Source: a virus
Lineage: Duplodnaviria > Caudoviricetes
IMG/VR virus record: IMGVR_UViG_3300046660_000364
Span: 2,201-66,200 of that record
Reading direction: 5' to 3' (one strand)
Length of the DNA stretch: 64,000 nt
Below, piece after piece: positions 12,001 to 58,484 of this stretch; positions within the stretch are counted from its first letter, which is position 1, and each line of letters opens with the position of its first letter. A program made the position numbers and the translations under genes. The notes below the pieces were generated by a model. It had not been told where the DNA came from, searched no databases, and saw nothing but the letters and a program-made list of their open reading frames with translations.

Positions 12001-15000
12001 ACCGGGTCCTTCGGCGCTTGCGGGTCCTTCGACTGGCGCTTGCCGTCGACGACCTTGCTGGTCGCCTTGGTGCCCACGCCCGAATTGACGTCGAACGCGG
12101 CGACCGGCGCCGGGGCCTGGTCCTTGGCCGGTTCGGCCGGCGGCTGCTCCTGGGCGGGCGCCGCGGGCGCCTGCTCCTGCTGGCCGGACGGCTTGCCCCA
12201 GTCCTTGGCCGAGACCGGCTTGTCGGTCAGCGCGACCGGCGTCAGGCGGTGCTTGCCGTCACCGATCGTGTCGCTCTCGTACAGCTTGCCCTCGTGCTCG
12301 ACGAACTGGCGCAGATCGGTGCCGAAGTTGCCGGCCGGGGCCTGCTCGCCTTCTGGCAGCGCCAGGCTCACCCACACGCTTTGCTTGCCCTGGGTGGAGC
12401 TGGTGACTTTGTAGGTGCGCCCGCCCATCTCGAAATACGGCGACTGCTGGATCTTCTCGGCGCCGGCCTTGAACTGCTCCGGGGTCGGATTCGGGACCTC
12501 GAGCGTGCCATCCTTCTGCTCGGGCGCGGCCGGGGCCTGCGGCTCGGGCTTGGCCGGCGCCTGCTGTTCCTGCGCCAGCTCGGCCTCGGCCTGGTCGAAC
12601 GCCGCGTGCAGCTGGTCCTCGCTGAGGGCGGCGTCGTGCGCCGGCTGCGCGCTGCCATCCTGCGCCAGCGTCTGCTGCGCCTGGCTGTACGGAATGAAGC
12701 GCACGTCCGGGAACCGCGCCTGCAGGGCCGGGATCGCGGCGGCGACCGGATCGGACACCAGTACCGACCTGATGCCGTCGGCCAGCGTCTTGTTCCTATC
12801 GGACAACAGGATGAACGGACCATCCTTGTAGGCGCCACCCGAGGCGGTGCCCAGGCCGGCGCCGACGCCGGCGGCGGCGTCCCTGGCGACCGTCAGCGGG
12901 GCGGTGTCGAACTGGCGGTTCGGGTTGATGCCGTTGGCGAGGATGTTCAGCAGCTGGCCCATCGGGTTGCTCTTGGCCAGGCCGTGGGCGTCGTACTGCG
13001 AACCGACGTCGGGGGTCACGCCGCCGGACTCGTTCCAGGCGTCGAAGTGGTCGTGGTGCTGGCGCGTGACGACGCCGTCGGCGCCGGGCGCGAACTGGGT
13101 GGCGTTCCATGCCTGCACGACGTCCTTGTTTTCCGGCGCGTACAGCGCGCGCAGGCCGTCGTGCATGACGTCGGCCGTGTGCGGGCTGGCCGGCTGGGCT
13201 GGGGCCGGGATCTGCATGGCCGGGAAATACGCCGGGTTGTAGGCGGTGGTCGTGTTGCCGCCCTTGAGCCACTGCTTGAGGCCGTCGACGGTGGTGGCGG
13301 TGATGTTCTCGCCGCCCTGCCAGCCCTGGGTATAGTGCGCGTCATACGCCTTGCGGGCCTGTTCCTGGCTGTTATAGCCCAGCATGACCTTGTGCTCGTC
13401 GAATTCGCCGGTGTCCTGGTTGATCTGGTCGACGATGAAGACGTGGTGGCTGGCCGGGTTCGGACCGATATACGTGTCGACCGCATCGCCGTCGGCGCCC
13501 TTGGTGCCACGGATGTAGCCGTAGTGGTCCTGCATCTGGGTCGACCATGGCGTGCCATCCGGGTCCTTGCCCTCGCGGGTAGTGCCGACCGGGTTCTCGA
13601 TCATCAGGTCGATGCCCTGCAGCTCGCCCTCGCCCTTCTTGTAGTTGCCGGCGTGCTTCTGCGCCTCGGACGGCGGCTTGCGGTCGTTCTGCTCGCTGGT
13701 GGCGGCCTGGTGCGCACCGGCGTCTAGCGCGGCGGCGGCGGCCGGGTCGATGCGGGTGATGTTCTCGATCGGGATGCCTGCGGTCGAGCCTTCGACCATT
13801 GCGTACCTGCCGCTGGGCGAGAACCCGGTGATGCGGGTGCCGCCCTCGAACATGTCCTCGCCGTTCAGCGTCACCTGCACCTGCTCGCCGACCTGCAGGC
13901 CGACCGGCGCGGCCGGGGCCTGCGCGGCGGCGGGATCGACGGCCGGGGTGGCGGCGTCGGCCGGCGGGGCTGCGGCGCCCTGCTCGAGCGCCGGGTCCTG
14001 GACCGGGCGCACACCGAACGCGCCGGCCTGGACCGGGTGCGGCACGACCTCGTGCGGGATGCCGGTGGTGCGGGTGCGGTCGTCGGCCTGCTTCTGCGCG
14101 GCCTCCTGGCGCATCGGCAGCATCGGGGTGGCCAGGCCGGCGGCGGTGGCCATCGGCCCGGCGGGCGGGGCGCCCATGTCGGCGCCGGCGTCGGGAGAGT
14201 CGAGCGGGTCGATGCCCGGCTGGGTGGCGGCCGGCGCGGCCGGGATCGCGGCCGGGTCGGCGAACAGCGAACCATCCAGCGTCAGCGGCCTGTTGGCCGA
14301 GATCGCGCGGGCGGCGTTGACGCGGAAATTCGTGGCGGCCTGCTGGTCGACCTTGGCGATCTCGGGCGCGATCTCGGCGGCAATGCGGGTGCGCTGCTGC
14401 TGGTCGGCGTCGGCCGAGGTCAGGACGTCGTTGCGCTGCTGCTGGCGGTGGGCGTTCACGCCCATGCCGGCCAGGCCGAACGGCGCCAGCAGCGCGGTCA
14501 TGCCGATGGTCGGCAGGATCGCCTCCTTGGCCGCGTCCCACGGCTTCTTGTCGTCGATGCCGTAGCGCGCCTCGGTGTAGGCCTCGGCGGCGTTCTGGCC
14601 CATTTCGGTGCCGACCTCGCCGATCATGGTCTCGGGCAGCTGGTGCAGCCAGGGTTTCAGCACCTTGGTGTTGGTGGCGCCCTGCAGCGCCTGCTCGGCG
14701 GCGGTGCCGGTGGTCTTGCCGATCGCGCGCCCGGCCAGGCCGAACATCTTGCCGCCGAGATAAGTGCCGGCCGTCTCGCCGAACCACTCCTCGGCGCCGG
14801 TCTCGCGTGCGGCGGCCAGGGCGTCCGCCTCGGGAAGCCCCTTGGCGCGCGCCTTTTCCAGCGTTTCCTGGGCCTGCGCCATGCCGGCCGGGGCCGAACC
14901 CAGCACGGAACCGGCCAGCAGGGCGGCGCCCTCGGGCGCACCGACCCCGGAGGCGATCAGGCCAACCCCGACCGCCGGCAGGATCGACTGCGGGATCATG

Positions 15001-42893: not shown

Positions 42894-43558
42894 CCCAAGA
42901 CGCAGAAATCCTCGCCCTGCATCGCCAGCTCGCCTACCAGAAGCTGCGCGCCGACCTGGCCGAGGCCCGCGCCACGTCGAAGTCGCAGGAGTGCATCGAG
43001 CTGCGCGAGCGGATGGCCAATTCCCCCGAATTCGAGGGAACTAGCCCATTGCAGGAGGCGGTCAACCGGCTTGACGACATCCTGCAGGGCGACGACGGCC
43101 AGGCGTACAAGGAAGCCCGCAAGGCGCTGCCGAGGCTGCGCGCGGCACTGGAGCGTGAATCCGTGACCGTCACGGGAAATGGTCCGTGGCACGCCGAGGA
43201 AATCGCGCAACGGCTGCCCCCGCCCCGCGCCACGGTCGCTGCGGTGACGGCCGAACTACTGGCCGCCGGCAACGCGGTGGTCGAGCACTGGCACTCGCGC
43301 GACTGGAAAAAGCCGCCTACTGCGGATGTTATCGCTCGGCTGACGAGGGCGGTAGGCCGGGTCAAACGAGGCCGTGAGCTGTACACCTGCGTCGGCAAGG
43401 GCGGCGAATACGAACTGGTTGGCGAGGCAAAGGGCGCCGGGACGTTGAAGACTTATTCGGGCTTGATCGTCTACCAGGACAGCATGACCGGGCAGATGTA
43501 CTGCCGTTCGATGACGGACTTCGACAATCGCATGCTGCGGATCGGACACCAGCCATGA
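42890..43558 (+). CDS. Hypothetical mosaic phage protein
   Basis: 222 aa; C-terminal KGGEYELVG..IVYQD...G.MYCR...DF (DUF1653-like). Confidence 0.65.
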   Translation: MTQDAEILALHRQLAYQKLRADLAEARATSKSQECIELRERMANSPEFEGTSPLQEAVNRLDDILQGDDGQAYKEARKALPRLRAALERESVTVTGNGPWHAEEIAQRLPPPRATVAAVTAELLAAGNAVVEHWHSRDWKKPPTADVIARLTRAVGRVKRGRELYTCVGKGGEYELVGEAKGAGTLKTYSGLIVYQDSMTGQMYCRSMTDFDNRMLRIGHQP

Positions 43559-44019
43559 AGGTACTGATATTCGACATCGACGGCGTCATCAACAGCGAGC
43601 GGACCTGCGCCGCCTTCGACGGCTACCCGCACGATTTCAGCCCGGTCGACATGGCCCGCTTCGATCCGGTGGCGCTGGCCCTGGTGAGGAAGCTGTGCGC
43701 GAAGACCGATTGCGTGATCGTGCTGTCCTCGACCTGGCGCCTGACCTTCACGATCGAGGAAGTGGCGCACTACTTGGACCTGCCGGTGATGGCGGCCACG
43801 CCGGACCTGGGCGACACCAACTCGCGCAGCGACGAGATCGCGCTGTGGCTCAGGCGGCATCCGCAGATCACGACCTACGCCATTGTCGACGACCTGGCGT
43901 TGGACTTCGACGACCCCGAGCAGCAAGCCCGCTTCGTCAAGACCAACGAGGAGTTCGGCCTGTCGCTGCCCAACTACCGCGCCCTGCTGCGCATCCTGAA
44001 CCCTGGAGTAGCACCATGA
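43555..44019 (+). CDS. HAD-family protein (HAD_SAK_2, RNA-repair-associated type)
   Basis: IFDIDGVIN, IVLSSTWR, R.DEI..WL, YAIVDD motifs. Confidence 0.8.
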   Translation: MKVLIFDIDGVINSERTCAAFDGYPHDFSPVDMARFDPVALALVRKLCAKTDCVIVLSSTWRLTFTIEEVAHYLDLPVMAATPDLGDTNSRSDEIALWLRRHPQITTYAIVDDLALDFDDPEQQARFVKTNEEFGLSLPNYRALLRILNPGVAP

Positions 44020-46408: not shown

Positions 46409-46981
46409 TCAGGCGTGGCCGTCGAGGTATCGGTAGAGGGTCATGCGGCTGATCCCGTACTCCCTGGCCAGCGCGGCCTTGGAGATCGCCGGATCGGCAG
46501 CGCGCTGGCGCAGCTCCTGCACGGTCGCTCCGTCGAGGGTGGGCTTCCTGCCCTTGTACTTGCCCTTGCGCTTGGCGATGGCGATCCCTTCGGCCTGCCG
46601 CTCGCGGATCATGGCCCTCTCGAACTGTGCGACAGCACCCAGCAGCCCGAGCAGCAGCTCGTTCATCGGGTTGGCCTCACCCGAGAAGGTCAGGTTCTGC
46701 GCGGTGAACGTCACGGTGACACCATCCTCGGTCAGGCGGTGCACCATCAGCAGCAGATCGTGCAGGTTCCTGGCCAGGCGGTCCATGCTGTGCACGAACA
46801 GCGTGTCGCCGTCCCGCACGTAGTCCAGCATCGCCTTCAACTGCGGCCTGTTCGTCGTGCCGCCGCTGCACTTGTCCTCGAACACCTTGTCCAGCTCGAC
46901 GCCGTCCAGCTGGCGCTCCGTGTTCTGGTCCGTGGTCGACACCCGCACGTACCCGATCCGCTTCCCTGGTCCCTTGCTCAT
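46409..46981 (-). CDS. Serine recombinase (resolvase/invertase family)
   Basis: IGYVRVST.DQ, SMDRLAR, AQFER.MIRERQ.EG, GRKP, C-terminal HTH; GAGGAGG RBS. Confidence 0.95.
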   Translation of the reverse strand: MSKGPGKRIGYVRVSTTDQNTERQLDGVELDKVFEDKCSGGTTNRPQLKAMLDYVRDGDTLFVHSMDRLARNLHDLLLMVHRLTEDGVTVTFTAQNLTFSGEANPMNELLLGLLGAVAQFERAMIRERQAEGIAIAKRKGKYKGRKPTLDGATVQELRQRAADPAISKAALAREYGISRMTLYRYLDGHA

Positions 46982-46999
46982 GGCTACCCTCCTCGGTGG

Positions 47000-47120
47000 T
47001 TGTGTACCACTAGAGTGTAGACCACAAGCGCATAGTGTCAAGCTAGGCGGAACACCATCCTATTGTTACTGGTCGAGTCCTGGCCTGCGCCCCGTAACAC
47101 ATGAATGTACCCATGTGTTA
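47000..47120. promoter_or_regulatory. Candidate res-like binding region upstream of the recombinase
   Basis: AT-richer segment with inverted repeat taacacatg-N8-catgtgtta (47095-47120) and weaker imperfect repeats. Confidence 0.5.
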
Positions 47121-48734: not shown

Positions 48735-49263
48735 TGGTCCCCACCGGCTGTTGCAGACGCTTCTTGAACGCGGCCCGCAGCTCGTCGAATCCATCGCTCA
48801 CGGCGACGGTGACATTGGTGCTGCTGTCCTCGGGTTCGTCCAGCTCGCGGATCTTGCGGATCGTCTCGACGGCCAGCTTGTTCGCCTCGCAGATGGTCTT
48901 GACATCTTTGGGGTGGTCGACGCTGTCCACCATCGTGAGCAGCTTGTCCATCGCCTTGCGGGCCACCGCGAGACCAGTCGTCATGTCCTTCACATCCTGG
49001 CTGGCCTCATCCACCTGGATCTGACGAATCGCCTCGTCACTCGTCAGTGCGTTCGTCACCTGTTCGTCAAGCGATACGCCCGACATTGCTTCCCGGACAA
49101 GTTCGCGCTTAATATCGCTGGTGCCTTTGATCCAGCCCTGCTTCTTGGCGTACCTGCGCAGGGTCGGTTCGGGGATCGCGTGCTTGGTGGCCAGGGCGTT
49201 GATGCTGTACCCGCCTGCCGCGTAGTCGATCTCCGCAGCGGCGAAATCGTATGGGGTGGTCAT
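48718..49263 (-). CDS. terS: Putative terminase small subunit
   Basis: N-terminal HTH (Y..G..S...LA....I...TLRR.AKKQGW); directly upstream of terL. Confidence 0.7.
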
Positions 49264-49308
49264 GAGCTGTCCTTTGTGCGCGAGGGGCTACGCAATCGTG
49301 TGCCTATG

Positions 49309-49325
49309 TATAGCATCATGCTATA
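49309..49325. promoter_or_regulatory. Palindromic operator-like site in the divergent terS/radC intergenic region
   Basis: tatagcat-c-atgctata, perfect 8-bp arms. Confidence 0.55.
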
Positions 49326-49380
49326 TACTGTGCATGTGGGTGTGTGTGCCCGCGTCCCCCTACTTGAACGGAGCCAACTT

Positions 49381-49884
49381 ATGAGTGTTCACAACAATGT
49401 CGTGCAGCTTGCGCCGGTGCCACCGCGCCCGGACACCCGCCGGCAGCGCGAGGATGCAACCATCCGGCGCGCCCTGTCGATCCTGTCGAACCGCATGCGC
49501 GCACCCGGCACGCTGCTGACCAGCCCGGCCACGGCGCGCGACTATGTGCGCCTCTACGCGGGGGAGCTGGAGCATGAGGTCTTTCTGGTGCTGTTCCTCG
49601 ACCCGCAGCACCGCCTGATCGCGCGGGAGGAGCTGTTCCGGGGCACCCTGACGCAGACCAGCGTGCACCCGCGCGAGGTGGTCAAGGCCACGCTGCACTA
49701 CAACGCGGCTGCGGTCCTGCTGGCGCATAACCACCCGTCCGGCTGCATCGACCCAAGCGAAGCGGACAAGCGGATCACCAATGCGCTGTCGCAGGCGCTT
49801 GCACTGATCGACGCCCGCGTGCTGGACCACATCATCGTCACCGCTAACCAGTCGTACTCGTTCGCCGACCACGGCCTTATCTGA
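49381..49884 (+). CDS. radC: RadC-like JAB domain protein
   Basis: [39 protein letters not shown]. Confidence 0.92.
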
Positions 49885-49901
49885 CTGAGAGGAGATCCAC
49901 C

Positions 49902-50105
49902 ATGAAATCGCACCGCGAAACCTATCCTGACCAGTACCGCCACCCCTTCTGCGGCAAGGCGGTCGTTGTCGATACCGGCAAGTTCCGCACGGAGGGCATC
50001 TTCGAGCGCAGCGTCATGACGCGCTTTGGCACCCTGGCGATCCTTGAAGGCTCGACCGACGGCTACCTGTTGGCCCATGTGAAGCTCAAGGACAACCCGG
50101 CCTGA
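49902..50105 (+). CDS. Hypothetical protein
   Basis: GAGGAG RBS, 67 aa. Confidence 0.65.
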   Translation: MKSHRETYPDQYRHPFCGKAVVVDTGKFRTEGIFERSVMTRFGTLAILEGSTDGYLLAHVKLKDNPA

Positions 50106-50110
50106 CGGCA

Positions 50111-50170
50111 CCAGTGTCAGCACCTCTCGCGGGGTGTTGACGCGGGGATCGTCCCGGCAACCATGAGGGG
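50111..50170 (+). ncRNA. Repeated double-hairpin cis element, copy 1
   Basis: CCA-GTGTCAGCACCTC/tcgc/GGGGTGTTGACGC-GGGGATCGTCCCG-GCAACC-RBS. Confidence 0.65.
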
Positions 50171-50177
50171 AAACGTC

Positions 50178-51104
50178 ATGCTTGAGAAACGACTTGTCGC
50201 TGCCGTGCGCGACATCATCAGGAGTTCCGACGCCGACGACGGCGCGGCGCTCGCCAACGCGATCCAGCAGGCCCGCACGCTGGTCGAGAACCCGCCCGCC
50301 TACGACACCGATCAGGCGGTACTCGACAACTTCCTCACCGCCCTGGCCGATCTCGGGTTCGGCGACGAGGACACGCCGGTCAACGGCGGCGACTGTGTGG
50401 ACTACATCTGCGAGTATTGGGACCGTCTCGCGCCCCTCGCCTCGGAATGGCCGCTCCCGCCCGAATTGGCCCAGGTGCGCACCCGGCTGAACGTGGGCAC
50501 CCGCGTGCTGTCGGTCGAGGGCGAGACCTCCGACACCGACCAGGGCGAACAGGCCACCGGCCCGCACGCCATCGGCACCATCACCGGGATCGACGACACC
50601 GTCGAGCATGGGATCTGCGTGGCGTTCGAGCCGTCCGGCGTTTCGGTGCTGCTGTCCTGCGCCGAGCTGGCCGACGATCTGAAGTACGAGATCGACCCGG
50701 AGGCCTACTACCCCAGCCGCGAGGCCGTGGTCGAAGCGGTCGAACGCATGCTGGCCCATGAGGGGAATTACGAGCTGGCCGTGCGCGTGGTGGCGAACAT
50801 GATCGAACAGGGGCAGGTCGAGCACACCGAGCACGGTTACATGATCGAGCGCGACACCAACGTGTTCGAGATTGCGGCCGACCTGTCGCGGGAGGATCTG
50901 CCCGACTCCTACCCGCCCGAGCTGGCGATCTCTGACCGCCACCTGACCGCCGACCAGTTGTTCACGAAGTACAGCACCAAGCGGGACAACGGCGAGCATC
51001 CGCAGTACCTGCGCCGCGACTGGCGGCACGATGTGGCCGAGGACAACACGCTCCTGGGCTACTGGCAATGGGTCGAGCACCAGCTTGAACAGGACCGCGA
51101 CTGA
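50178..51104 (+). CDS. Hypothetical acidic mosaic protein
   Basis: Coding-like; C-terminal GEHP.Y.R.DW...V....TLLGYWQWV motif. Confidence 0.7.
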   Translation: MLEKRLVAAVRDIIRSSDADDGAALANAIQQARTLVENPPAYDTDQAVLDNFLTALADLGFGDEDTPVNGGDCVDYICEYWDRLAPLASEWPLPPELAQVRTRLNVGTRVLSVEGETSDTDQGEQATGPHAIGTITGIDDTVEHGICVAFEPSGVSVLLSCAELADDLKYEIDPEAYYPSREAVVEAVERMLAHEGNYELAVRVVANMIEQGQVEHTEHGYMIERDTNVFEIAADLSREDLPDSYPPELAISDRHLTADQLFTKYSTKRDNGEHPQYLRRDWRHDVAEDNTLLGYWQWVEHQLEQDRD

Positions 51105-51105
51105 A

Positions 51106-51166
51106 CCAGTCTGAGCGCCTTGTCCGCAGGGCGCTCAGGCGGGGGCCGTCCCCGTCAACCGAGGAG
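51106..51166 (+). ncRNA. Repeated double-hairpin cis element, copy 2
   Basis: CCA-GTCTGAGCGCCTTG/tccg/CAGGGCGCTCAGGC-GGGGGCCGTCCCCG-TCAACC-GAGGAG. Confidence 0.65.
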
Positions 51167-51172
51167 AACAAC

Positions 51173-51664
51173 ATGCCTGTCTACAGCTTCATCACCACCA
51201 TCACAGCGCCAGACCGCGAGGCTGCGGAGGCCGCAGCATCGGAAATCCGCGTCTCTGCCGAAGAAGGGATCGAGGCCGCGATCCAAGACGAGGAGGTGCC
51301 CGAGGGCGTCGAAGTCGAGCACGGCGAACTGGTCGGCGACAGCCTGTTCGGCTATCTGGACCTGTCCACCGCCCACCTGACGCCGGGCACGCGCGAGCGC
51401 CTGAACTTCTACGGCGACGATCCGGGCCGCAGCGTTGACGGCCTGCGCCTGCGTCTGGCGAACTCTGGCTGGCCCGCCATGAGCATCGCCCCCTACGAGC
51501 ACGGCTGGTTCGTGACCGTGCCCGACAAGAAGGAACAGGACCTGTCCGGCCTGCCCGAGGATCTGGCCGCTGTCATGCACTACGCCCAGGTCGCCGGTGC
51601 GTATGTCGTCCGCTTCGACAGCGATGGCCACACCGTGGACGATCTGTCCGTCTACGAGGAGTGA
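51173..51664 (+). CDS. DUF5983-like protein
   Basis: LDLSTAHL..YEHGWFV..LPEDL..V..YA...G...VRFDSDG. Confidence 0.7.
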   Translation: MPVYSFITTITAPDREAAEAAASEIRVSAEEGIEAAIQDEEVPEGVEVEHGELVGDSLFGYLDLSTAHLTPGTRERLNFYGDDPGRSVDGLRLRLANSGWPAMSIAPYEHGWFVTVPDKKEQDLSGLPEDLAAVMHYAQVAGAYVVRFDSDGHTVDDLSVYEE

Positions 51665-51666
51665 CC

Positions 51667-52113
51667 ATGCCCAAGAAAACTTACCGCGTCGTCTACAACG
51701 GCGTCGAGTACACCCGCCAGACCGAGCGCATCTACACGCACATCGTGCTGGTGCGGCGCGACTACGAAACCGAGCTGGCTCAGAGCATCAAGACTGCCCG
51801 CGAGCGTGCCAGGGCCAGCCACGGCTATGCGGTCGAGCACGCCAACCAGCCCATCACCGCGAAAAGCTGGGCCACGGCGGACGAGCTGGCCGAGAGTGCG
51901 CGTGTCGCCGGCATGACGCCCGAGCAGTACGAGGCCGAGTGCGTCGAGAAGGCCCGCGCCTACGTCGAGAAGCGCCGCGCCGCAGGGGTGTTCGACAACC
52001 CCGGCCCGCTCACATGGTGCGGCAGGCCGGATCTGGCCGCGAAGGAGGAAGCCAGGGCGCGCAGCAGCGGGTATTGGGCCGAGGTCGTCACCGTGCCGGT
52101 GCCGCAACCCTGA
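51667..52113 (+). CDS. Hypothetical protein
   Basis: GAGGAG RBS; TR.T.R.YTH.V..WCGR.DLA. Confidence 0.7.
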   Translation: MPKKTYRVVYNGVEYTRQTERIYTHIVLVRRDYETELAQSIKTARERARASHGYAVEHANQPITAKSWATADELAESARVAGMTPEQYEAECVEKARAYVEKRRAAGVFDNPGPLTWCGRPDLAAKEEARARSSGYWAEVVTVPVPQP

Positions 52114-52118
52114 CCATG

Positions 52119-52177
52119 CCAGTCTCAGCGTCTCCGCAAGGGGGCGCTCAGGCGGGAATGGTCCCGACTACAGGAGG
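52119..52177 (+). ncRNA. Repeated double-hairpin cis element, copy 3
   Basis: CCA-GTCTCAGCGTCTCC/gcaa/GGGGGCGCTCAGGC-GGGAATGGTCCCG-ACTAC-AGGAGG. Confidence 0.65.
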
Positions 52178-52182
52178 ATGCG

Positions 52183-52914
52183 ATGACGACACCGAAAGAT
52201 CCGCTGGCCCGGCTGGTCCAAGCCGCGCTGGCCTACGACAAGAAGATCATGGACGCCGAGGCCGTGCCGACCGCCGACGACTACAACGAACTGCTCGACA
52301 TGGTGAAGGCCTACGCGCCGCTGCCGATCACCGCGCCCGAGCAGGAACCGCGCGTATCGACCGTCTACGAGTGCCAGGAGTGCGACTGGACCGGCACCCT
52401 GGACGACGTCAACGGCATCCACCATATCCACCACATTGAGGAGTACCTCGAACCGGGCGATCTGACGCCGGCTGGCGTGTGCCCGGAGTGCAGGGCCGTG
52501 ATCGGGGTCGAGGACCCGGACATTCCGCACCACACCCTGTATCACGTCGGCGTCACCATGCGCATGCGCGGCTGGACCGTGATCCCGCCCGCCGACTGTC
52601 CACCGCTGCCCTCGCCCACCGTACCTGCTGGCGGGTTCACCGAAGGGCCGTGGCATGTCGAGCCGACCGAGGGCAACCCGAACAGCCTGTCGATCTGCAA
52701 GGCGGGCTACGGCATCATCGCCGAGATCAACCGCGACGATGAGCCGCTGGTCGATCTCGACCACCACGACGCGGCCCTGATCGCCGCTGCGCCGGGCCTC
52801 GCCAACGCCGTGCGCGACTGCCTGAACGCCTACGACAAGTTCCGCGACCTGCCCTGGGGCACGCTGCGCCGGGCCTATGCCGCTATCTTCCCCCAACCGA
52901 AACAAGGAGCCTGA
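52183..52914 (+). CDS. Mosaic early-type protein with Zn ribbon and TxGPW..LIAAAP domain
   Basis: CQEC..PAGVCPEC; FTEGPW..AALIAAAPGL. Confidence 0.7.
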   Translation: MTTPKDPLARLVQAALAYDKKIMDAEAVPTADDYNELLDMVKAYAPLPITAPEQEPRVSTVYECQECDWTGTLDDVNGIHHIHHIEEYLEPGDLTPAGVCPECRAVIGVEDPDIPHHTLYHVGVTMRMRGWTVIPPADCPPLPSPTVPAGGFTEGPWHVEPTEGNPNSLSICKAGYGIIAEINRDDEPLVDLDHHDAALIAAAPGLANAVRDCLNAYDKFRDLPWGTLRRAYAAIFPQPKQGA

Positions 52915-52916
52915 GC

Positions 52917-53219
52917 ATGAGCAATCAATTCAACCTCGCCTGCCCGGAGTGCGGCAGCACCGACGAGCTGGACATCGCCGCGACCGTATGGGTCCGCCTG
53001 ACCGCTGACGGCACGGACGCCGACGAGTCGCACGACGGCAGCCACGAATGGGGCGACAGCAGCGCCTGCCACTGCAACCAGTGCGGCTGGGATGGGACCG
53101 CAGGGCAAGCGGACGCGGACTGTGCCGAGGGCACGCACTCGTGGATCGACGAGACCGGCCTACTGCCGCCCGACACCGCCTGCACCCGCTGCGGCGCGCT
53201 GTACGGCCACCCGGACTGA
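52917..53219 (+). CDS. Multi-CxxC zinc-binding protein
   Basis: CPECGS, CNQCGW, CTRCG; AAGGAG RBS. Confidence 0.7.
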   Translation: MSNQFNLACPECGSTDELDIAATVWVRLTADGTDADESHDGSHEWGDSSACHCNQCGWDGTAGQADADCAEGTHSWIDETGLLPPDTACTRCGALYGHPD

Positions 53220-53224
53220 CAGGG

Positions 53225-53285
53225 CCAGTGCCAGCGCCTGCCGCGTGCGGGCGCTGGTGCGGGAATTGTCCCGGCAACCAAGGAG
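53225..53285 (+). ncRNA. Repeated double-hairpin cis element, copy 4
   Basis: CCA-GTGCCAGCGCCTGC/cgcgt/GCGGGCGCTGGTGC-GGGAATTGTCCCG-GCAACC-AAGGAG. Confidence 0.65.
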
Positions 53286-53291
53286 AGAGCA

Positions 53292-53717
53292 ATGGACCTG
53301 CACCAGACCGCGATCACGGCGGCATTCGTGATGGATGGGCTGCACCAAGCCGACCTGAAAGAGGTCATGTCCCACTACATCGGCGACGGTGGCCTGCTCG
53401 AAGTGGTCGACGACGTCATGCAGTGGGTCCCGGCGATCACGGCGCTGCGTGCCGCTGCCGACCGGCTGCGCCCCGACTATCCCGGCGTGTTCGAGTACGA
53501 GGTGTCCAGCGAGTTCGGCAAGTGGCTGGGCAACAACATCATCGACGAAGGCGACCTGCCCGACCGTGGGCACGCCATGAGCATGCTGATCGACGCCGTG
53601 GAGTCGTTCTATCGCCTGAACGGGCCGGAGCACCGCGACCAGCGCCGCCGCCTGCGTGCCAACCTGGACGCCGCCGCCGACCTCATCATGGCACCTGCCG
53701 CCAGCGAGGGGACCTGA
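53292..53717 (+). CDS. Hypothetical protein
   Basis: 141 aa; PGVFEYEV..FGKWL motif. Confidence 0.7.
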   Translation: MDLHQTAITAAFVMDGLHQADLKEVMSHYIGDGGLLEVVDDVMQWVPAITALRAAADRLRPDYPGVFEYEVSSEFGKWLGNNIIDEGDLPDRGHAMSMLIDAVESFYRLNGPEHRDQRRRLRANLDAAADLIMAPAASEGT

Positions 53718-53720
53718 CCC

Positions 53721-54035
53721 ATGAACCGCTCTGACGAAGTTCGTCACATTGTGACGAAACCTGACGAGCGGTTCGTCACCCGCGATCCGTGGGTGATGAC
53801 CGCTGCCGAGCGCCAGTGGCTGCGCGACCGGCCCACCGCCACCGTGGTGCGGGCCGAGCAAGCCACATGGCCGCTGCTGCTGGCCGCTGTGGTCCTGCTG
53901 CTGTCAGCCTATACGCTCGACGCCTACCCGATGGTGCGCGGAGCACTGGCCGACATTCCGTGGGCCAGGATCTTCCACTACCAGCCCGTCTCGCCGATTG
54001 ACCCAGGCGACCGCAACGGGCTATTGCATAAATGA
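53721..54035 (+). CDS. Hypothetical membrane protein
   Basis: WPLLLAAVVLLLSAY hydrophobic segment. Confidence 0.55.
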   Translation: MNRSDEVRHIVTKPDERFVTRDPWVMTAAERQWLRDRPTATVVRAEQATWPLLLAAVVLLLSAYTLDAYPMVRGALADIPWARIFHYQPVSPIDPGDRNGLLHK

Positions 54036-54049
54036 AAGGAGTCTTAACC

Positions 54050-54391
54050 ATGACCGACCGCTACAAGGGCAGCAACATCAGCCCGTTCGCCTGCGGCCCC
54101 GACAAGGTGTGCATGGACTGCATGGCCGCGCTGCCCGAGGCCAGCATGACCCTCGTGCAGCGCACGCCGGGCCTGACCATGTACCGCTGCCCTGCCTGCG
54201 CCGCGCAGCGCCCGACGACGCTGGCTGCGATCCTGGCCTACGCCAAGGCGCGCTGGTGCTGGGATGACCGCACCATGCTGGAGGAGCTGTTCGACACCTA
54301 CGCCATGAGCGGCACGCCCGAGGAGTTCGTCGATATGTGGGCGCACAAGTACGACCTGACGGACCCGCGCGACCTGGGGATCAACCCATGA
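54050..54391 (+). CDS. Hypothetical Zn-ribbon protein
   Basis: AAGGAG RBS; CMDC..CPAC; PEEFV...A.KYDL. Confidence 0.65.
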   Translation: MTDRYKGSNISPFACGPDKVCMDCMAALPEASMTLVQRTPGLTMYRCPACAAQRPTTLAAILAYAKARWCWDDRTMLEELFDTYAMSGTPEEFVDMWAHKYDLTDPRDLGINP

Positions 54392-54579
54392 GCGGGCGTC
54401 CATCCGACGCCGTCGTCATAGCCGTCGCCCTGCTGCGCAAGAGCGGCGGCACGATGTCGGCCTATGCCGCCGCCAAGCAGGTCGGCATCGCCCTGTCCAC
54501 GATCTACCGCTCGGCGTTGTACAAGGCGTACAAGGCCGAGCAGAAACCCACCCCCAACCGCAAGGAGAAGAACCAATGA
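54388..54579 (+). CDS. Small HTH protein
   Basis: AYAAAKQVGIALSTIYR helix-turn-helix. Confidence 0.7.
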   Translation: MSGRPSDAVVIAVALLRKSGGTMSAYAAAKQVGIALSTIYRSALYKAYKAEQKPTPNRKEKNQ

Positions 54580-55067
54580 GACACAACGGAACCATCCAGG
54601 CCAGCATGGACGACATGATCGCCAAGTACGGCTGGGCCGTGCAGGCCGTGTTCGGCGTGCACGGCGAGCACGGAAACCCCCCGTTCAGCTACACCGTGGG
54701 CCTGGCCGCGAAGAACCTGCCGGAAATCATCGTGTTCGGCATTCCCCACCGCGTGGCGCACACGTTCCTGAACGCCCTGGCCCGGCGCTTCACCACGACC
54801 GGCGTGCCGCCCTTCGACACCGACCTGCACGACGTCGCCGAGGGCTACCCGGCGCGCCTGATACTGGCACCGCGCGAGGAATCGGACCAGTACATGTTCG
54901 CCACCAAGAACCGTTACCCGGACTACGCGGCGGTGCAACTGGTGTGGCCCGACGACAAGGGCCGCTATCCGTGGGTTGACGGCTTCAACCCGAAACTGGT
55001 CAGGCAGCAGCCGGTGCTGCGCGACATCTACATGGAGAGAAAATTGTCTAAGGAGAACCAGCCATGA
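54576..55067 (+). CDS. DUF4262-like protein
   Basis: GWAV..PFSYTVGL..PEIIVFG..QLVWPD..GRYPW. Confidence 0.8.
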   Translation: MRHNGTIQASMDDMIAKYGWAVQAVFGVHGEHGNPPFSYTVGLAAKNLPEIIVFGIPHRVAHTFLNALARRFTTTGVPPFDTDLHDVAEGYPARLILAPREESDQYMFATKNRYPDYAAVQLVWPDDKGRYPWVDGFNPKLVRQQPVLRDIYMERKLSKENQP

Positions 55068-55468
55068 GAACCACCCGCCATCACGCGCGGCATCAGACCG
55101 CGCTGCCGCCCGGCGACAACAGCGACGAGATCACGCTGCTGGACTACTTCGCCGCCCGCGCGCCGCAGGACATCCCCGACTGGTTCCAGCCGAGCTACCC
55201 CGAGTACGAGGGGCCTGCGTACCCAGCCATCCCCGAAGGCATCCCCGAGGAGGACCGCAAGATGCTCGCAAGCTGGACCAAAGACGGCTGCTGGGATCTG
55301 GAAGGCGAGTACGCCTGGTTCCAGGAGGCCGCAGAGACGTACCGGCAGGCGCGCGAGAACCACGACTACATGTGCAAGATGGGTGCCTACTACGAATGGC
55401 GCTGGGAGTACGCTGAGTCCATGGTGACATTTCGCAAAGCGGTCGTAGGCGATGAGGTGACATCATGA
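55064..55468 (+). CDS. Phage protein of the 'LRDYFAA' family
   Basis: TLLDYFAARAP..WRWEYAESM. Confidence 0.7.
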   Translation: MRTTRHHARHQTALPPGDNSDEITLLDYFAARAPQDIPDWFQPSYPEYEGPAYPAIPEGIPEEDRKMLASWTKDGCWDLEGEYAWFQEAAETYRQARENHDYMCKMGAYYEWRWEYAESMVTFRKAVVGDEVTS

Positions 55469-55680
55469 GCCACGATCCCGTCACCATCACCGCCGTCATG
55501 GACGACGATGTCGCTTGGGAGCTGGCGCAGTTCTGCAAGCGCAGCACGTTCAGCACGTTCTACGAGTTCACCGAGGCGCACCTGCCCCCGGACGAGCGCA
55601 CCGCGCTGGCCTACCGCATGATCCGCGGCATCGAGGCCGTCCATGCCGCCCTCGCCCAGCAGGGCTACGCACCACGCTGA
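55465..55680 (+). CDS. Hypothetical protein
   Basis: AWELAQFCKR..AY.M..ALAQQGYAPR. Confidence 0.7.
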   Translation: MSHDPVTITAVMDDDVAWELAQFCKRSTFSTFYEFTEAHLPPDERTALAYRMIRGIEAVHAALAQQGYAPR

Positions 55681-55704
55681 CCAACCACAACCAAGGAGAA
55701 AATC

Positions 55705-56022
55705 ATGAGTCTGATTCTGACCATCAAGGCATCGACCACCACGCAGCAGATCGAGGACGCGATCCGCTACCTCGACATGCGCAAGCACGCCATCGAGCGC
55801 CGCGACGACGCCGCCGCCGTGATCGCGGAGCAGGGAGACCAGGAAGTGCTGGAGCTGCACCATATCGACGGACTGGATGTGCTCTACTCGCCGACCTGGG
55901 GCTACGCCTACGTCAACCATCCGACCGGCGGCATTGGCGACAGCATGGTGCTGGACAACGGCGAAGCCGACTCTGCCGAACATGCCGCCCGCGTGTGGCG
56001 CGAACAGAACGGGCCACACTGA
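55705..56022 (+). CDS. Hypothetical protein
   Basis: AAGGAG RBS, 105 aa. Confidence 0.65.
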   Translation: MSLILTIKASTTTQQIEDAIRYLDMRKHAIERRDDAAAVIAEQGDQEVLELHHIDGLDVLYSPTWGYAYVNHPTGGIGDSMVLDNGEADSAEHAARVWREQNGPH

Positions 56023-56040
56023 ACCTGCCCGCGCCGCGCC

Positions 56041-56063
56041 AGCCGCCTTCGGGCGGCTTTTTT
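56041..56063 (+). terminator. Rho-independent terminator ending the plus-strand island
   Basis: AGCCGCC-TTCG-GGCGGCT followed by a T tract. Confidence 0.85.
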
Positions 56064-56385
56064 ACGTCCTGACGCGCCCCACGCAGGGCATGTCCCACTG
56101 CGCGCGCAGGCCGTCGCCGGCATCGGCGATGATCCGCGCCACGTAGCGCGCCCCTTCGCTCAGCGCGAGCGTGAACGGCAACGTCGCCCGATACACCCCG
56201 TTCGAGTCGGCCAGGTAGTCCATGGCGAGCGGCCAGTCGGTGCCGGGCACTGGCAGGCCGGCGCCGTCGTACAGCGCGACCGACACCCGCGCATCGCTGA
56301 CGAACATGCCGCTGTTCTCGTCGCGCAGGCCGGTCACGTCCACGATGGAGTTGTTGCCAATATAGAGAATATGGATGGTGCTCAT
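56062..56385 (-). CDS. Small beta-rich virion accessory protein
   Basis: 107 aa Ig-like pattern (WPL.M.Y...SNGVYRA). Confidence 0.6.
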   Translation of the reverse strand: MSTIHILYIGNNSIVDVTGLRDENSGMFVSDARVSVALYDGAGLPVPGTDWPLAMDYLADSNGVYRATLPFTLALSEGARYVARIIADAGDGLRAQWDMPCVGRVRT

Positions 56386-58484
56386 CGGTCGGGCCTCAGA
56401 TCAACGCGCCCGCTCAGGGCGGCGCGCATGCGGTTCGGCGCTTCCAGCGCGGGCTGGGCCTGCACCGTGCCACTCAGGTCCGGGTGCAGGCGCTTGGTGC
56501 CCGCCGTCAGCGTGCCGGGCTGCGGCAGGTACTGCGCCAGCACGCCCTTCGTGTGTTGCCGCTCCTGCGCCGTGGTGACGAGGGCATCGACGCCAACCAC
56601 CAGCAGGTTGCCGTCGCCGATGTGCTGCGCCTGGCCGGTCGTCAGCGCCATATCGACCGCCACGCCGGCCAGCAGATCCGCGTGCTGGCCCTGGCGGGTC
56701 GCGGTCGGCGCATCCGAGGACAGCCCGAACAGGCCGGCGACATGCTGCACCTGGCCGCTTTCAGTCGTGTTGACGCTCTCGGCGCGGACCTGGGCGCGCA
56801 CGCGCTGCTTCTGGTCGGTGGCGGCACTCGTATCCGCCGCGATCCCGGCCACGGCGCTGCTGCCCTGCCCCTGCGCGGTGGTCGCCTGCGCGACGGCAGA
56901 GACGCCGGCCTGTGCCTCGCTGGACTGGCCCTGGTAGGTCGCCACGTCCACCACGTAGGCGCTTGCCAGCTCGCCGGTCGCCTGCTGGGCGCTGGCGGTC
57001 GAGGCGGATGCCTCCACCACGCTATCGAGCTGGCCGCTGGCGGTCTGGGCCTGCGCGAGCTGGGCGCTGGTGTCGAGGCTGACCCCGGCCTCGGCGCTGC
57101 CGGCCTGCGCCTGCGCCGTGCTGGCCCCGGTATCGCTGGCGACTCCGACCTGCGCGCTGCTGGTTTGCGCCTGGGCGCTGCTGGCCGCGCTGCTGGCCGA
57201 CAGGGTGGCGGAAGCTGCCGCCTGCTGGGCCTGCGCGGTCGCGCCCTGGCCTGCTGCCGAGGTGGCGGCACTGGCCGCGCTGTGCTGCGCCTGCGAGGTG
57301 GTGGCGCTGACCGTGCTGGTGCCGAAGCTGGCGGTGGCTGCCGCGCTGCTGGTCTGGCCCTGCCGGGTGCCGACGCTGGCGCCGGGCACGCCCTCGACGA
57401 TGGACACCGCCGACAGCAGGCGGCGCGAGCTGACCGTGGTGCCGGTGATGCCGACGCTGGTCGCGCTCTGCGCGGCGCTGGTGATGCGGGTGCCGGTCCC
57501 GTAGAAATAGGTGCCGCGCGGGGTGGTGAACGCCATCCCGTTGGTCCAGGTCGCCTCGGTGTCGTAGCTGACGGAGACGACGGCGGCGGCGATGAAGCCC
57601 GCTGCTGCGGTATTGAACGGCCCCGCCGAGATCGAGGTGCTGGCGGTGTCGGTGACGTTCTGCGCCAGGTGGTCGAACACGGCTGGCCCCGGCGACTGCA
57701 CATGCAGCGCGGTGAGCACGCGCTGGCCGGTGGACACGTCCGCATCCCAGCTGACCGTGATGGCGTTGGCGCTGTGGCCGAGCGCGTTCAGGCAGTAGAA
57801 CCAGCGCAGGTGCCGGTTGCCGGTGGCCAGCCCGACCTCGCTGGTCGCCACATAGGTGTTGCCGGCGGTGTCGGTGACGCTCGCGGTGGCCGGCACGTCG
57901 TGCTGGACCGCCAGCAGGATATGGTTGCCGGCGATGACCTCGGCGGCCGGCAGCGCATCGCTGAACCCGTCGGCGCCGCTGGGGCCGTAGGTGACGTCGA
58001 GCAGGTCGCGCCGCACCAAGGCCCACGGCGTGGCCGTGGTTGCCGCCGCGCTGCTGCCCTGCGCCTGGCTGGTGGCGATGCCGACGGCGGTCCTGACACT
58101 GGCGGCGGCTGCCGCACTCTGGGCCTGCGCGGTCGCGGCACTGGCGGCGATCCCGACGCTGGCGGCGGCAGCGATGTGCTGCGCCTGCGCGCTGCTGGCG
58201 CTGTCCGCGTCCTGCACGAGCGCGGTGGCCGATGCGCTCTGGCCCTGCGCTGCGGTAACAGTGGCGGCAATCGCGGTGCCAGCCTGCGCGCTGCCGCTCT
58301 GGGCCTGGCTGGTGCTGGCGGTGCTGTCGGTAGTGAGCGCGCCAGTCCCAGTCGTGCCAATTGGCTCGGCCAGGTAGACGATGTCGAGGCTGGTGTTGTC
58401 CGAGCTGGAAGCGGCGTCCACATCGGCGAACACCTGGCCGAGGTAGACGATGTCGAGCGCCTTGCGGTCGTCGGCGGCGCTCAC
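56382..58484 (-). CDS. Fibre-like protein with ~19 20-aa TxQAQ repeats and an inserted beta domain
   Basis: ASTSQAQSGSAQAGT-type repeats with ~20-aa period flanking a ~200-aa non-repeat domain. Confidence 0.7.
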   Translation of the reverse strand: MSAADDRKALDIVYLGQVFADVDAASSSDNTSLDIVYLAEPIGTTGTGALTTDSTASTSQAQSGSAQAGTAIAATVTAAQGQSASATALVQDADSASSAQAQHIAAAASVGIAASAATAQAQSAAAAASVRTAVGIATSQAQGSSAAATTATPWALVRRDLLDVTYGPSGADGFSDALPAAEVIAGNHILLAVQHDVPATASVTDTAGNTYVATSEVGLATGNRHLRWFYCLNALGHSANAITVSWDADVSTGQRVLTALHVQSPGPAVFDHLAQNVTDTASTSISAGPFNTAAAGFIAAAVVSVSYDTEATWTNGMAFTTPRGTYFYGTGTRITSAAQSATSVGITGTTVSSRRLLSAVSIVEGVPGASVGTRQGQTSSAAATASFGTSTVSATTSQAQHSAASAATSAAGQGATAQAQQAAASATLSASSAASSAQAQTSSAQVGVASDTGASTAQAQAGSAEAGVSLDTSAQLAQAQTASGQLDSVVEASASTASAQQATGELASAYVVDVATYQGQSSEAQAGVSAVAQATTAQGQGSSAVAGIAADTSAATDQKQRVRAQVRAESVNTTESGQVQHVAGLFGLSSDAPTATRQGQHADLLAGVAVDMALTTGQAQHIGDGNLLVVGVDALVTTAQERQHTKGVLAQYLPQPGTLTAGTKRLHPDLSGTVQAQPALEAPNRMRAALSGRVDLRPDR

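What the first reader, a model, noticed from the sequence alone, without database searches (positions are those of the whole stretch)
50111..53285. Covarying double-hairpin + RBS element repeated four times at ~1 kb spacing in the radC island
Seen: four intergenic copies (starts 50111, 51106, 52119, 53225; spacings 995, 1013, 1106 nt). Each lies a few nt after a stop codon and shares CCA-[13-14 bp stem GT...GC, 4-5 nt loop]-GGG(A/G)NNNGTCCC(C)G-short linker (AACC in three copies)-SD-ATG. Stem sequences differ but pairing is kept by compensatory changes (GTCAGCACC/GGTGTTGAC, CTGAGCGCC/GGCGCTCAG, GCCAGCGCC/GGCGCTGGT), and frequent G-U pairs point to a plus-strand single-stranded structure. There are no U tracts, so these are not terminators. 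Inference: possibly an undescribed cis-acting system that divides the island into ~1 kb units of one or two genes. Options are mRNA processing/stabilising sites (cf. T7 early RNase III sites), put-like antitermination RNAs, a protein-bound translational switch, ssDNA hairpin promoters, or recombination boundaries for cassette shuffling.
Basis: partly seen in the sequence, partly recalled or inferred. Interest (0 to 1): 0.88.

Follow-up and report, generated by a model that had tools for sequence, protein, structure and literature searches.

The report
Hairpin linkers between swappable phage genes
Four copies of a conserved hairpin of about 60 bases, absent from the RNA family database searched, sit exactly between the stop of one gene and the start signal of the next in a phage accessory-gene operon, and related phages have swapped and reordered genes at these hairpins.

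Summary
A covariance model built from the four copies finds only them in the window, at 69-78 bits; the next best unrelated site scores 14 bits. It finds 72 more copies in 44 viral-contig loci. No Rfam 15 family matches.

The structure is better read as one long bulged hairpin than as two hairpins. It has a lower stem GACNN/NNGUC, a 2x3 internal loop, CC/GG, a bulged A and a variable upper stem of 11-14 bp. Twelve of 19 pairs show changes on both sides. G.U outnumbers A.C by 73 to 3, so the sense strand folds.

The upstream stop codon starts within -4 to +4 of element base 1 in 56 of 58 contexts. The next start codon lies 17-32 nt beyond the element. The elements lie inside one operon that ends in a canonical terminator. 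Each complete genome checked has a single cluster.

Neighbouring genes are exchanged and reordered at the elements. Exchange points are spread across the element, and no tyrosine recombinase or Y1 transposase was found.

Best reading (0.45): a portable intercistronic RNA module for processing, stability or insulation that also serves as a homology patch for cassette exchange. Its biochemical function is untested.

The parts
50104..50162 (+). Element copy 1. GAC overlaps the TGA stop of the 67-aa gene. It is followed by an SD and by ATG at 50163 and 50178, both in frame.
   Evidence: R1 hit of 75.1 bits; sequence.
51099..51160 (+). Element copy 2. GAC is the last codon of the 308-aa gene and TGA lies inside the lower stem. 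SD, then ATG at 51173.
   Evidence: R1 hit of 75.1 bits. A metagenome variant lacks 51155-51665, starting right after this copy.
52112..52172 (+). Element copy 3. GAC overlaps the TGA stop of the 150-aa gene. SD, then ATG at 52183.
   Evidence: R1 hit of 69.2 bits. Identical copies occur in L010, L023 and L033 although the flanks have diverged.
53218..53279 (+). Element copy 4. GAC overlaps the TGA stop of the 100-aa gene. SD, then ATG at 53292.
   Evidence: R1 hit of 78 bits.
49264..49380 (.). Divergent intergenic region between the HTH gene beside the TerL-like gene (- strand) and radC (+ strand). It holds an AT-rich palindrome at about 49310-49335. Presumed start of the operon (inferred).
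   Evidence: Sequence; GC3 frame plot; TerL-like matches of the neighbouring 558-aa gene.
49381..49884 (+). radC (RadC-like JAB domain), first gene of the operon.
   Evidence: PF04002, E 5e-43.
49902..50105 (+). 67-aa gene upstream of copy 1.
   Evidence: GC3 0.85; no Pfam match.
50178..51104 (+). 308-aa gene between copies 1 and 2, with a conserved C-terminal tail.
   Evidence: phrog_11556 on residues 273-306; shared tails.
51173..52113 (+). Two-gene unit between copies 2 and 3: a DUF5983 gene (51173-51664) and a 148/150-aa gene (ATG 51667).
   Evidence: PF19419, E 1.7e-20; variant without the first gene.
52183..53219 (+). Two-gene unit between copies 3 and 4: a 243-aa gene and a 100-aa gene.
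   Evidence: GC3 0.88 and 0.90; phrog_1273.
53292..56022 (+). Remaining tightly packed genes of the same operon. No element lies between them.
   Evidence: ORF and GC3 calls; no R1 hit of 20 bits or more there.
56041..56066 (+). Canonical intrinsic terminator (7-bp GC-rich stem, then a T run) that ends the operon.

Best explanation
The four copies belong to a family of sense-strand structured elements of about 60 nt. They are transcribed inside a long accessory-gene operon (radC, DUF5983 and unknown genes; relatives carry ArdC- and DUF932-type genes). Each element is a complete gene junction. Its first bases supply or abut the stop codon of the upstream gene. A long bulged hairpin of 18-21 bp follows, then an A/C-rich linker of 6-12 nt, the Shine-Dalgarno sequence and the start codon.

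I infer that the hairpin acts in the mRNA as a cistron boundary. It could be a double-strand-specific processing site, like the RNase III sites between phage T7 early genes. It could also act as a 3' cap that protects the upstream message. Either way it keeps the ribosome-binding site of the downstream gene free whatever gene lies upstream.

Because all copies share the conserved blocks GAC..CCAGU and GCGGG..GUCCCG, they also serve as homology patches. Phages exchange, delete, insert and reorder the genes in between at these patches.

Shown: the fold, the folding strand, the position rules, conservation above that of the flanking genes, and the coincidence with mosaic junctions. Inferred: that the active form is RNA, that it is cut or protective, and which host factor reads the conserved base of the hairpin.
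For: Structure and strand:
- 76 hits (67 distinct) form standard pairs in 94.9% of cells, against 81.3% after shuffling and 34-48% with slid partners. Twelve of 19 pairs changed on both sides.
- In the variable upper stem G.U outnumbers A.C by 73 to 3.
- The + strand folds 3.6-12.3 kcal/mol better than the - strand.

Position:
- The stop codon starts at -4 to +4 relative to element base 1 in 56 of 58 distinct contexts.
- A start codon preceded by an SD lies 17-32 nt after TCCC in 58 of 58 contexts.
- 74 of 76 hits have co-oriented ORFs on both sides.

One transcription unit: there are no sigma-70-like sites and no + strand terminator-like site between 49000 and 56040, and a canonical terminator lies at 56041.

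Selection: in 33 syntenic pairs the element is 93% identical while both coding flanks are 81% identical.

Helix size fits a dsRNA substrate. The upper hairpin has 11-14 pairs in 64 of 67 sequences, with a mean of -21.5 kcal/mol. The lower part adds 2 + 5 pairs.

Junction role:
- 38 upstream families combine with 33 downstream families in 51 combinations. The order 3->0 seen in six loci is reversed to 0->6->3 in L007.
- Identical elements carry unrelated genes on one side only.
- One metagenome contig lacks 51155-51665, starting right after copy 2. Another joins the 5' half of copy 3 to the 3' half of copy 4.
Against: - No RNA data exist, so no cleavage, RNA end or bound protein has been seen.
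- The conserved bases at the foot of the hairpin are not explained by a need for a stable hairpin. RNase III, as I recall it, needs little sequence.
- The elements are confined to one cluster per genome: 3 within 3.1 kb of a complete 98-kb genome, and 2 within 1.6 kb of a complete 60.6-kb genome. A general expression device would be expected at other junctions too. This pattern fits a cassette-linked or mobile element equally well.
- A complete phage that carries two elements shares no detectable protein with this one, apart from a 55-aa portal stretch. The element therefore spreads, or is kept, independently of its genes.
- If genes run with the replication fork, the sense strand is also the lagging-strand template. 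G.T asymmetry therefore does not exclude single-stranded DNA.
- Only 6 of 26 tetraloops are of the RNA-stabilising UNCG or GNRA types, and four of them are the same UACG.
Confidence: 0.45

Rival explanations
1. The hairpin is an operator for a trans-acting RNA-binding protein, from the host or the phage. The protein would read the conserved foot of the hairpin (GAC/GUC stem, internal loop, CC/GG, bulged A) and time or shut off translation of the gene that follows.
For: - Sequence is conserved at the base of the helix while the apex is free to vary. That pattern is typical of a protein-recognised helix.
- The distance to the SD is fixed.
Against: - The SRNQREG family was found in 2 of 5 element-bearing records. 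It is missing from a 100%-complete record that has two elements.
- That record shares no detectable protein with this phage apart from a 55-aa portal stretch, so a common phage-encoded partner is unlikely.
- No host partner is known.
- The SD itself is not inside the structure.
Confidence: 0.2
2. The element folds in single-stranded DNA, on the lagging-strand template or during recombination. It would then be a structure-specific recombination site, analogous to integron attC or to REP sequences, that an unidentified enzyme uses to cut out and insert gene cassettes.
For: - The architecture resembles attC: a conserved paired foot, an unpaired spacer, an extrahelical base and a variable apex.
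- The element occurs only in the variable array.
- Gene order is permuted, not only replaced.
- The same element occurs in phages that share no genes.
- One contig joins the 5' half of copy 3 to the 3' half of copy 4.
Against: - No tyrosine recombinase (PF00589) and no Y1 HUH transposase (PF01797) was found in this record or in two complete element-bearing genomes: 0 of 3 for each.
- The nearest genes on the other strand are an HTH gene and a TerL-like gene, not recombinase genes.
- The small serine resolvase at 46409-47041 acts on duplex sites (recalled knowledge). Its family F29 was called in only 3 of the 34 mapped sources.
- Exchange points lie at the 5' edge, after CCAGT, at GCGGG or at the 3' edge, not at one fixed position.
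- The tight link to the stop codon and the SD is not needed for a DNA site.
Confidence: 0.12
3. The elements have no biochemical role of their own. They would be selfish or hitch-hiking linker sequences, like miniature mobile elements. They would persist because recombination keeps copying them, with the hairpin tolerated rather than selected.
For: - Restriction to the most mosaic part of the genome.
- Presence in unrelated phages.
- Breakpoints inside and at the edges of the element.
Against: - Copies within one genome are not near-identical. Mean column identity is 78%, and the stems differ by compensatory changes. This indicates long-term selection for pairing, not recent copying.
- The element is more conserved than the flanking coding DNA.
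- Orientation is strict: 74 of 76 hits have co-oriented ORFs on both sides.
Confidence: 0.1
4. The elements are transcription signals: a terminator or attenuator, a put-like antiterminator, or a hairpin promoter for a phage RNA polymerase.
For: They are GC-rich hairpins between genes, repeated along an early-type operon.
Against: - No T run follows any copy, whereas the operon ends in a canonical terminator.
- There are no promoter-like sites, and no internal terminator to read through.
- Stems of 11-14 bp with loops of 3-5 nt on the sense strand do not fit the short template-strand hairpins of N4-type promoters, whose features I recall from memory.
Confidence: 0.03

Closest known systems
PeSL cassettes (promoter-early stem-loops) of T4-type phages (PMC2839356 and PMC4122927; abstracts and outlines read)
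   Same: Both are small conserved intergenic motifs with a stem-loop. Both are concentrated in the variable region of non-essential genes. Both mark the points where genes are inserted, deleted and replaced between related phages, by recombination between the motifs.
   Different: A PeSL is a strong sigma-70-like promoter plus a working terminator. These elements have no promoter-like site and no T run, and they lie inside one transcription unit. They show a conserved foot, a variable apex and compensatory changes. They overlap the stop codon. They also occur in phages that share no genes.
RNase III processing sites between the early genes of phage T7 (recalled knowledge; no paper read)
   Same: Both are irregular hairpins of about 60 nt, with an internal loop and no U tract. 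Both lie between cistrons of a polycistronic early transcript, and copies within one phage share sequence.
   Different: Cleavage is not shown here. The lower stem has only 5 + 2 bp. The foot is conserved across unrelated phages, and the elements are limited to one array.
Integron attC sites (consensus and mechanism recalled)
   Same: Both are defined by structure rather than sequence. Both fold on one strand, with a conserved paired foot, an unpaired spacer, an extrahelical base and a variable apex. Both sit at the end of each gene cassette in a co-oriented array.
   Different: There is no integrase. There are no RYYYAAC/GTTRRRY boxes; the ends are GAC...GTC. There is no single crossover point. 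The folding strand is the sense strand.
REP/BIME extragenic palindromes of bacteria (recalled)
   Same: Both are imperfect palindromes placed just after stop codons, often inside operons, with reported effects on mRNA stability. I recall a report that a REP within about 15 nt of a stop codon lowers output of the upstream gene. I could not find that paper in the library.
   Different: REPs are host-chromosome repeats present in both orientations and tied to RAYT transposases. This motif was found in 1 of 151 Burkholderiales genomes sampled, and that one was the seed genome itself. It has one orientation only, and no Y1 transposase was found.
Rfam radC (RF01754) and STAXI (RF01728) motifs (table and STAXI passage of PMC2864571 read)
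   Same: Both are candidate structured RNAs, or single-stranded DNAs, next to radC, antirestriction and other DNA-handling genes of mobile elements.
   Different: cmscan against all 4227 Rfam 15 families gives no match at the gathering threshold, in the window or in 12 related loci. Nothing relevant appears at E up to 10.

Membership tests
Any Rfam 15 family (including radC RF01754 and STAXI RF01728) | cmscan score at or above the family's gathering threshold | tested here: not met
   There were 0 matches in the window and 0 in 12 related loci totalling 135 kb. At E up to 10, only three chance-level matches appeared in 49000-54500. The one at an element is Guanidine-II on the - strand, 16.6 bits against a threshold of 32.
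Intrinsic (Rho-independent) terminator | GC-rich hairpin followed directly by a run of U | tested here: not met
   The scan of 49000-56500 finds none at the four elements on the + strand. The only + strand site is 56041-56058, at the end of the operon.
T4-type PeSL cassette | Strong sigma-70-like early promoter within the motif | tested here: not met
   There are 0 promoter-like sites in 49000-56500.
T4-type PeSL cassette | Lies in the variable region and marks points of gene exchange | tested here: met
Integron attC / gene cassette array | Tyrosine recombinase (IntI) encoded beside the array | tested here: not met
   PF00589 gave 0 matches in this record and in two complete element-bearing genomes. 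This record is estimated 66% complete.
Integron attC / gene cassette array | One fixed crossover position near the foot of the hairpin | tested here: not met
   Similarity breaks at the 5' edge, after CCAGT, at GCGGG or at the 3' edge in different pairs.
Integron attC / gene cassette array | Single-strand fold with paired foot, unpaired spacer, extrahelical base and variable apex | tested here: met
   The one-long-hairpin structure is supported by pair counts and by strand asymmetry. This is a resemblance in shape only.
RNase III processing site (T7 type) | About 20 bp of interrupted double helix between cistrons | tested here: met
   5 + 2 lower pairs plus 11-14 upper pairs; strictly intercistronic.
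RNase III processing site (T7 type) | Cleavage by RNase III | not testable with these tools
   No RNA run holds the region.
REP / RAYT system | Many copies in the host chromosome and a Y1 (RAYT) transposase | tested here: not met
   The model matched 1 of 151 Burkholderiales genomes, the seed itself, and only 36 candidates per genome were scored. PF01797 gave 0 of 3 phage records.
N4-type hairpin promoter | Short hairpin (5-7 bp stem, 3-nt loop; recalled) on the template strand | tested here: not met
   The stem has 11-14 bp and the folding strand is the sense strand.

The most novel reading that the evidence does not exclude
The hairpins are the recombination sites of a phage-borne gene-cassette system that works without an integron integrase. 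They would fold on single-stranded DNA (or act through the transcript) and be recognised by a host or still unrecognised enzyme. Accessory or anti-defence genes could then be excised, inserted and reordered, and passed between otherwise unrelated phages of the same hosts.
Probability: 0.1. Interest if true: 0.9.

Novelty: new variant of a known kind. Interest (0 to 1): 0.62.

Why it matters
The element is a well-supported structured motif that matches no Rfam 15 family. I found 76 copies (67 distinct sequences) with compensatory changes. It has an unusually strict grammar: a stop codon in its foot and the ribosome-binding site just behind it.

It is tied to the part of phage genomes where accessory genes of the radC, ArdC, DUF932 and DUF5983 kind turn over. 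That gives a concrete, testable handle on two open questions. One is how phages keep newly acquired genes expressed in any neighbourhood. The other is how such genes move between unrelated phages.

The element can also serve as a search flag for variable accessory-gene arrays in metagenomic phage contigs. As a natural junction between cistrons, it may interest people who build synthetic operons.

Tried and rejected
Stop-codon readthrough or fusion. The distance from stop to next start is in frame in 23 of 56 contexts, against 18 and 15 for the other two frames. That is no enrichment, so I rejected this.

Guanidine-II riboswitch on the - strand. The match scores 16.6 bits against a threshold of 32, and the ACGR loop is absent in copies 3 and 4. 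Rejected.

Sigma-54 promoter and Chi-like readings of parts of copy 4. The relevant bases are not conserved in the other copies when the alignment is read by eye. Rejected.

A regex found them in 3 of the 45 loci scanned, L001-L043 plus L071 and L164. A profile found them in 2 of 5 whole records, and not in a complete record that has two elements. They are not a required partner, and the question is left open for the main group.

A phage protein shared by all element-bearing phages. tblastn of all ORFs of this record against 60,000 of the 60,628 bases of record G154 gave one 55-aa portal match. No candidate emerged.

Cultured relatives. A near-identity DNA search of plasmids gave none. A distant DNA search of phages gave only a 109-bp stretch in two Brevundimonas phages. 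Protein searches with the TerL-like and portal proteins gave only remote relatives below 60% identity. My guess from memory that this is a Bcep22-like phage is therefore not supported.

Expression data. No RNA holder is listed for 49300-54000.

Weak joints from laid contigs. Several joints have short sides (21-47 letters) at 85% likeness: 49086->52845, 50601->54352 and 'goes back 517' at 52876->52360. I treated these as unreliable and did not use them.

Bacterial genomes. Only 1 of those 120 matches has a paired stem, at 10 of 10 positions, and the rest have 7 or fewer. The scan says little about true frequency in bacteria.

Viral contigs. A regex with a stem-pairing score run over the new loci gave 102 pattern matches, 14 of them with 9 or more of 10 stem positions paired. 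The covariance model was then run on 100 of the 102 new loci; L268 and L269 were left out of that model search. Thirteen of the first 43 pattern loci had no model hit at E up to 2e-5, and I dropped them as chance matches.

Literature. Searches found no description of this motif. This is not an exhaustive search.

Full report
WHAT IS THERE.

The window is bases 2201-66200 of a single 66.2-kb virus record with 68% G+C, estimated 66% complete. It is a tailed phage. It has an SU10-type portal and a TerL-like large terminase. On the - strand it encodes a polyvalent protein of at least 5864 aa that runs off the record. No close cultured relative turned up.

The finding lies in a + strand operon. The operon starts after a divergent intergenic region (49264-49380) and opens with radC (49381-49884; PF04002). 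It runs through about 16 genes to 56022 and ends in a canonical hairpin-plus-T-run terminator at 56041-56058. Neither a sigma-70-like site nor a + strand terminator-like site lies inside it.

Most junctions in the operon are overlapping or very tight. Four are wider, about 60-75 nt from stop codon to start codon. Each of those four is filled by one copy of the reported element.

A covariance model built from the four copies and run over the whole window without filters returns the four sites at 69-78 bits. The next hits, at 15-20 bits, are their own reverse strands. The best unrelated site scores 14 bits.

The short core CGGGRNNNGTCCC is not significant on its own once one mismatch is allowed: 11 found against 22.7 expected. 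The whole element carries the signal.

IT IS A FAMILY.

A pattern scan of viral contigs returned 43 loci, many with two or three matches. The model confirmed 57 sense-strand copies in 30 of those loci. It added 15 copies in 14 of the 100 new loci that were searched with the model.

Altogether there are 76 copies, 67 of them distinct, in the window plus 44 loci.

Random pattern matches behave differently. In bacterial genomes only 1 of 120 pattern matches has a paired stem. In the second viral scan the stem scores are bimodal, with 14 real hits against 88 at 7 or fewer paired positions.

The one bacterial hit is a contig of a Burkholderiales metagenome-assembled genome. Its element is identical, flanks included, to the one in viral locus L213. 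The model found no copy in 150 other sampled genomes of that order, although only 36 candidates per genome were scored. No Rfam 15 family matches the window or 12 related loci.

STRUCTURE.

The long stem is strongly supported. On 67 distinct sequences, 10 of the 14 pairs of the upper helix show changes on both sides. Across the whole structure 94.9% of cells form standard pairs, against 81.3% after shuffling and 34-48% when partners are slid.

Instead, the invariant GAC that begins the element, plus the next two bases, pairs with NNGUC on the 3' side. Pair 4-74 occurs as A-U 34, U-A 7, C-G 4, U-G 3 and G-C 2, with 15 unpaired. On the first set of 54 distinct sequences it was paired in 38 of 52, against 22 expected by permutation. 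That test is not corrected for relatedness, and I count only about five independent pair types.

The best-supported drawing is therefore one long hairpin:
- a lower stem GACNN/NNGUC;
- a 2x3 internal loop;
- CC/GG;
- a bulged A;
- an upper stem of 11-14 bp (64 of 67 sequences) with a loop of 3-5 nt.

This drawing leaves the conserved CCCG tail unexplained. A competing GGG/CCC pairing, perhaps while a ribosome occupies the stop codon, cannot be excluded.

The fold belongs to the sense strand. In the variable part of the stem G.U pairs outnumber A.C by 73 to 3. The four + strands also fold better than their complements.

POSITION RULES.

In 56 of 58 distinct contexts the stop codon of the upstream gene starts between -4 and +4 relative to the first base of the element. 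In 24 contexts it is tGAc, so that G and A of the element are part of the stop. In 23 it is GAC followed by TGA, TAG or TAA, so that the protein ends in Asp and the stop lies inside the lower stem.

A start codon preceded by an SD follows 17-32 nt after TCCC in all 58 contexts. Co-oriented ORFs were found on both sides of 74 of 76 hits. The stop-to-start distance shows no preference for being in frame (23/18/15), so readthrough fusion is not the point.

In 33 pairs of syntenic junctions the element is 93% identical while the coding flanks are 81% identical. The non-coding element is therefore under stronger constraint than the genes around it.

MOSAIC JUNCTIONS.

The genes around the elements are the variable part of these genomes. 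Across the 74 copies with both flanks, 38 upstream families meet 33 downstream families in 51 combinations. One downstream family, the 141-aa gene after copy 4, is preceded by six different families. One upstream family is followed by seven.

Order is not only interrupted but also permuted. Family 3 precedes family 0 in the window and in five other loci, whereas L007 has 0, 6, 3.

Where two loci share only one flank, the element shares the side next to that flank. Individual pairs show the break at the 5' edge, just after CCAGT, at GCGGG or at the 3' edge.

Contigs of four rhizosphere metagenome runs laid on the region show the same thing in near-identical genomes:
- One variant lacks 51155-51665, which holds the DUF5983 gene, starting immediately after copy 2.
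- One contig joins the 5' half of copy 3 to the 3' half of copy 4.
- One replaces 52563-53213, up to the 5' edge of copy 4.
- Several exact contigs end inside or at the edges of copies 3 and 4.

In two complete genomes the elements form a single cluster: 3 within 3.1 kb of 98 kb, and 2 within 1.6 kb of 60.6 kb.

The flanking genes that can be named are of the kind found in entry and anti-restriction islands of mobile elements. They are RadC and DUF5983, RadC and DUF932 in relatives, and ArdC-like, GP88 and a clamp-like protein in more distant phages. That these act against host defence is inference from family names only.

WHAT IT IS NOT.

- Not a terminator, promoter or antiterminator.
- Not a template-strand hairpin promoter. 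The strand and the size are both wrong.
- Not an integron-like site served by a phage enzyme. PF00589 and PF01797 gave no match in this record or in two complete genomes. The divergent neighbours are an HTH gene and a TerL-like gene, not recombinase genes. There is also no single crossover point.
- Not dependent on a phage protein shared by all carriers. A complete phage with two elements shares nothing detectable with this one apart from a 55-aa portal stretch.

MOST LIKELY MECHANISM (inference).

The element is a portable gene junction that works in the mRNA. A stable local hairpin begins at the stop codon. It is followed by a short A/C-rich linker and the SD. This arrangement isolates the downstream ribosome-binding site from whatever lies upstream.

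With 18-21 bp of interrupted helix, the hairpin is also a plausible substrate for a double-strand-specific nuclease. A cut there would leave a protective hairpin on the upstream message, as at the RNase III sites of the T7 early region (recalled knowledge).

The conserved blocks at the foot point to a specific reader.

The same conserved blocks give about 60 nt of homology between otherwise unrelated segments. That explains the exchange, deletion and reordering of the genes between copies, much as shown for PeSL cassettes in T4-type phages (abstracts of PMC2839356 and PMC4122927).

I put this reading at 0.45. The rivals are a protein operator at 0.2, a single-stranded-DNA recombination site at 0.12, inert or selfish linkers at 0.1, and transcription signals at 0.03.

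The restriction of the elements to one array per genome, and their presence in unrelated phages, are the facts that fit the main reading least well. They keep the cassette-system reading alive.

VERDICT.

I class it as a new variant of a known kind, namely intercistronic stem-loop cassettes of phage variable regions. Interest 0.62.

Noticed in passing
window 3-15392 (- strand), running off the record: Giant polyvalent protein of at least 5864 aa (GC3 0.92). It has InPase, DUF6884, LPD1 and strawberry-notch helicase domains. The record is estimated 66% complete.
   Followed up: partly
window 49290-49345: AT-rich stretch with a near-perfect palindrome (TATAGCATCATGCTATA) in the divergent region between the HTH gene beside the TerL-like gene and radC. 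It looks like an operator or promoter region. Its only Rfam match is a chance-level miRNA model.
   Followed up: no
window 51020-51104 and the ends of upstream genes in L004, L010, L016, L023, L024, L030: Seven different proteins that end at an element share a C-terminal tail of about 28 aa (..GYWQWVExQ[LI]EQ..D). In the window protein it matches phrog_11556. Homology therefore extends from the element into the end of the upstream gene in this subgroup.
   Followed up: partly
Relatives occur in two other records of the main phage group, but not in a complete unrelated phage that carries the element.
   Followed up: partly
window 46409-47041 (- strand): Small serine recombinase (Resolvase + HTH_7) two genes from the TerL-like gene. 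Its role is unknown. The family was called in only 3 of the mapped loci.
   Followed up: no
window 43555-44019: Gene with the HAD domain of 'Swiss Army Knife' RNA repair proteins (PF18143, E 2.5e-27), in the + strand operon upstream.
   Followed up: no
L007 6460-6539: One family member has an upper stem extended by about 20 nt. A similar long apex appears in the hybrid copy-3/copy-4 contig of run X3. The apex tolerates large insertions.
   Followed up: no
G153 and G154 (records behind L001 and L021): Both complete element-bearing genomes have direct terminal repeats and no tyrosine integrase, which suggests virulent phages with fixed ends.
   Followed up: no
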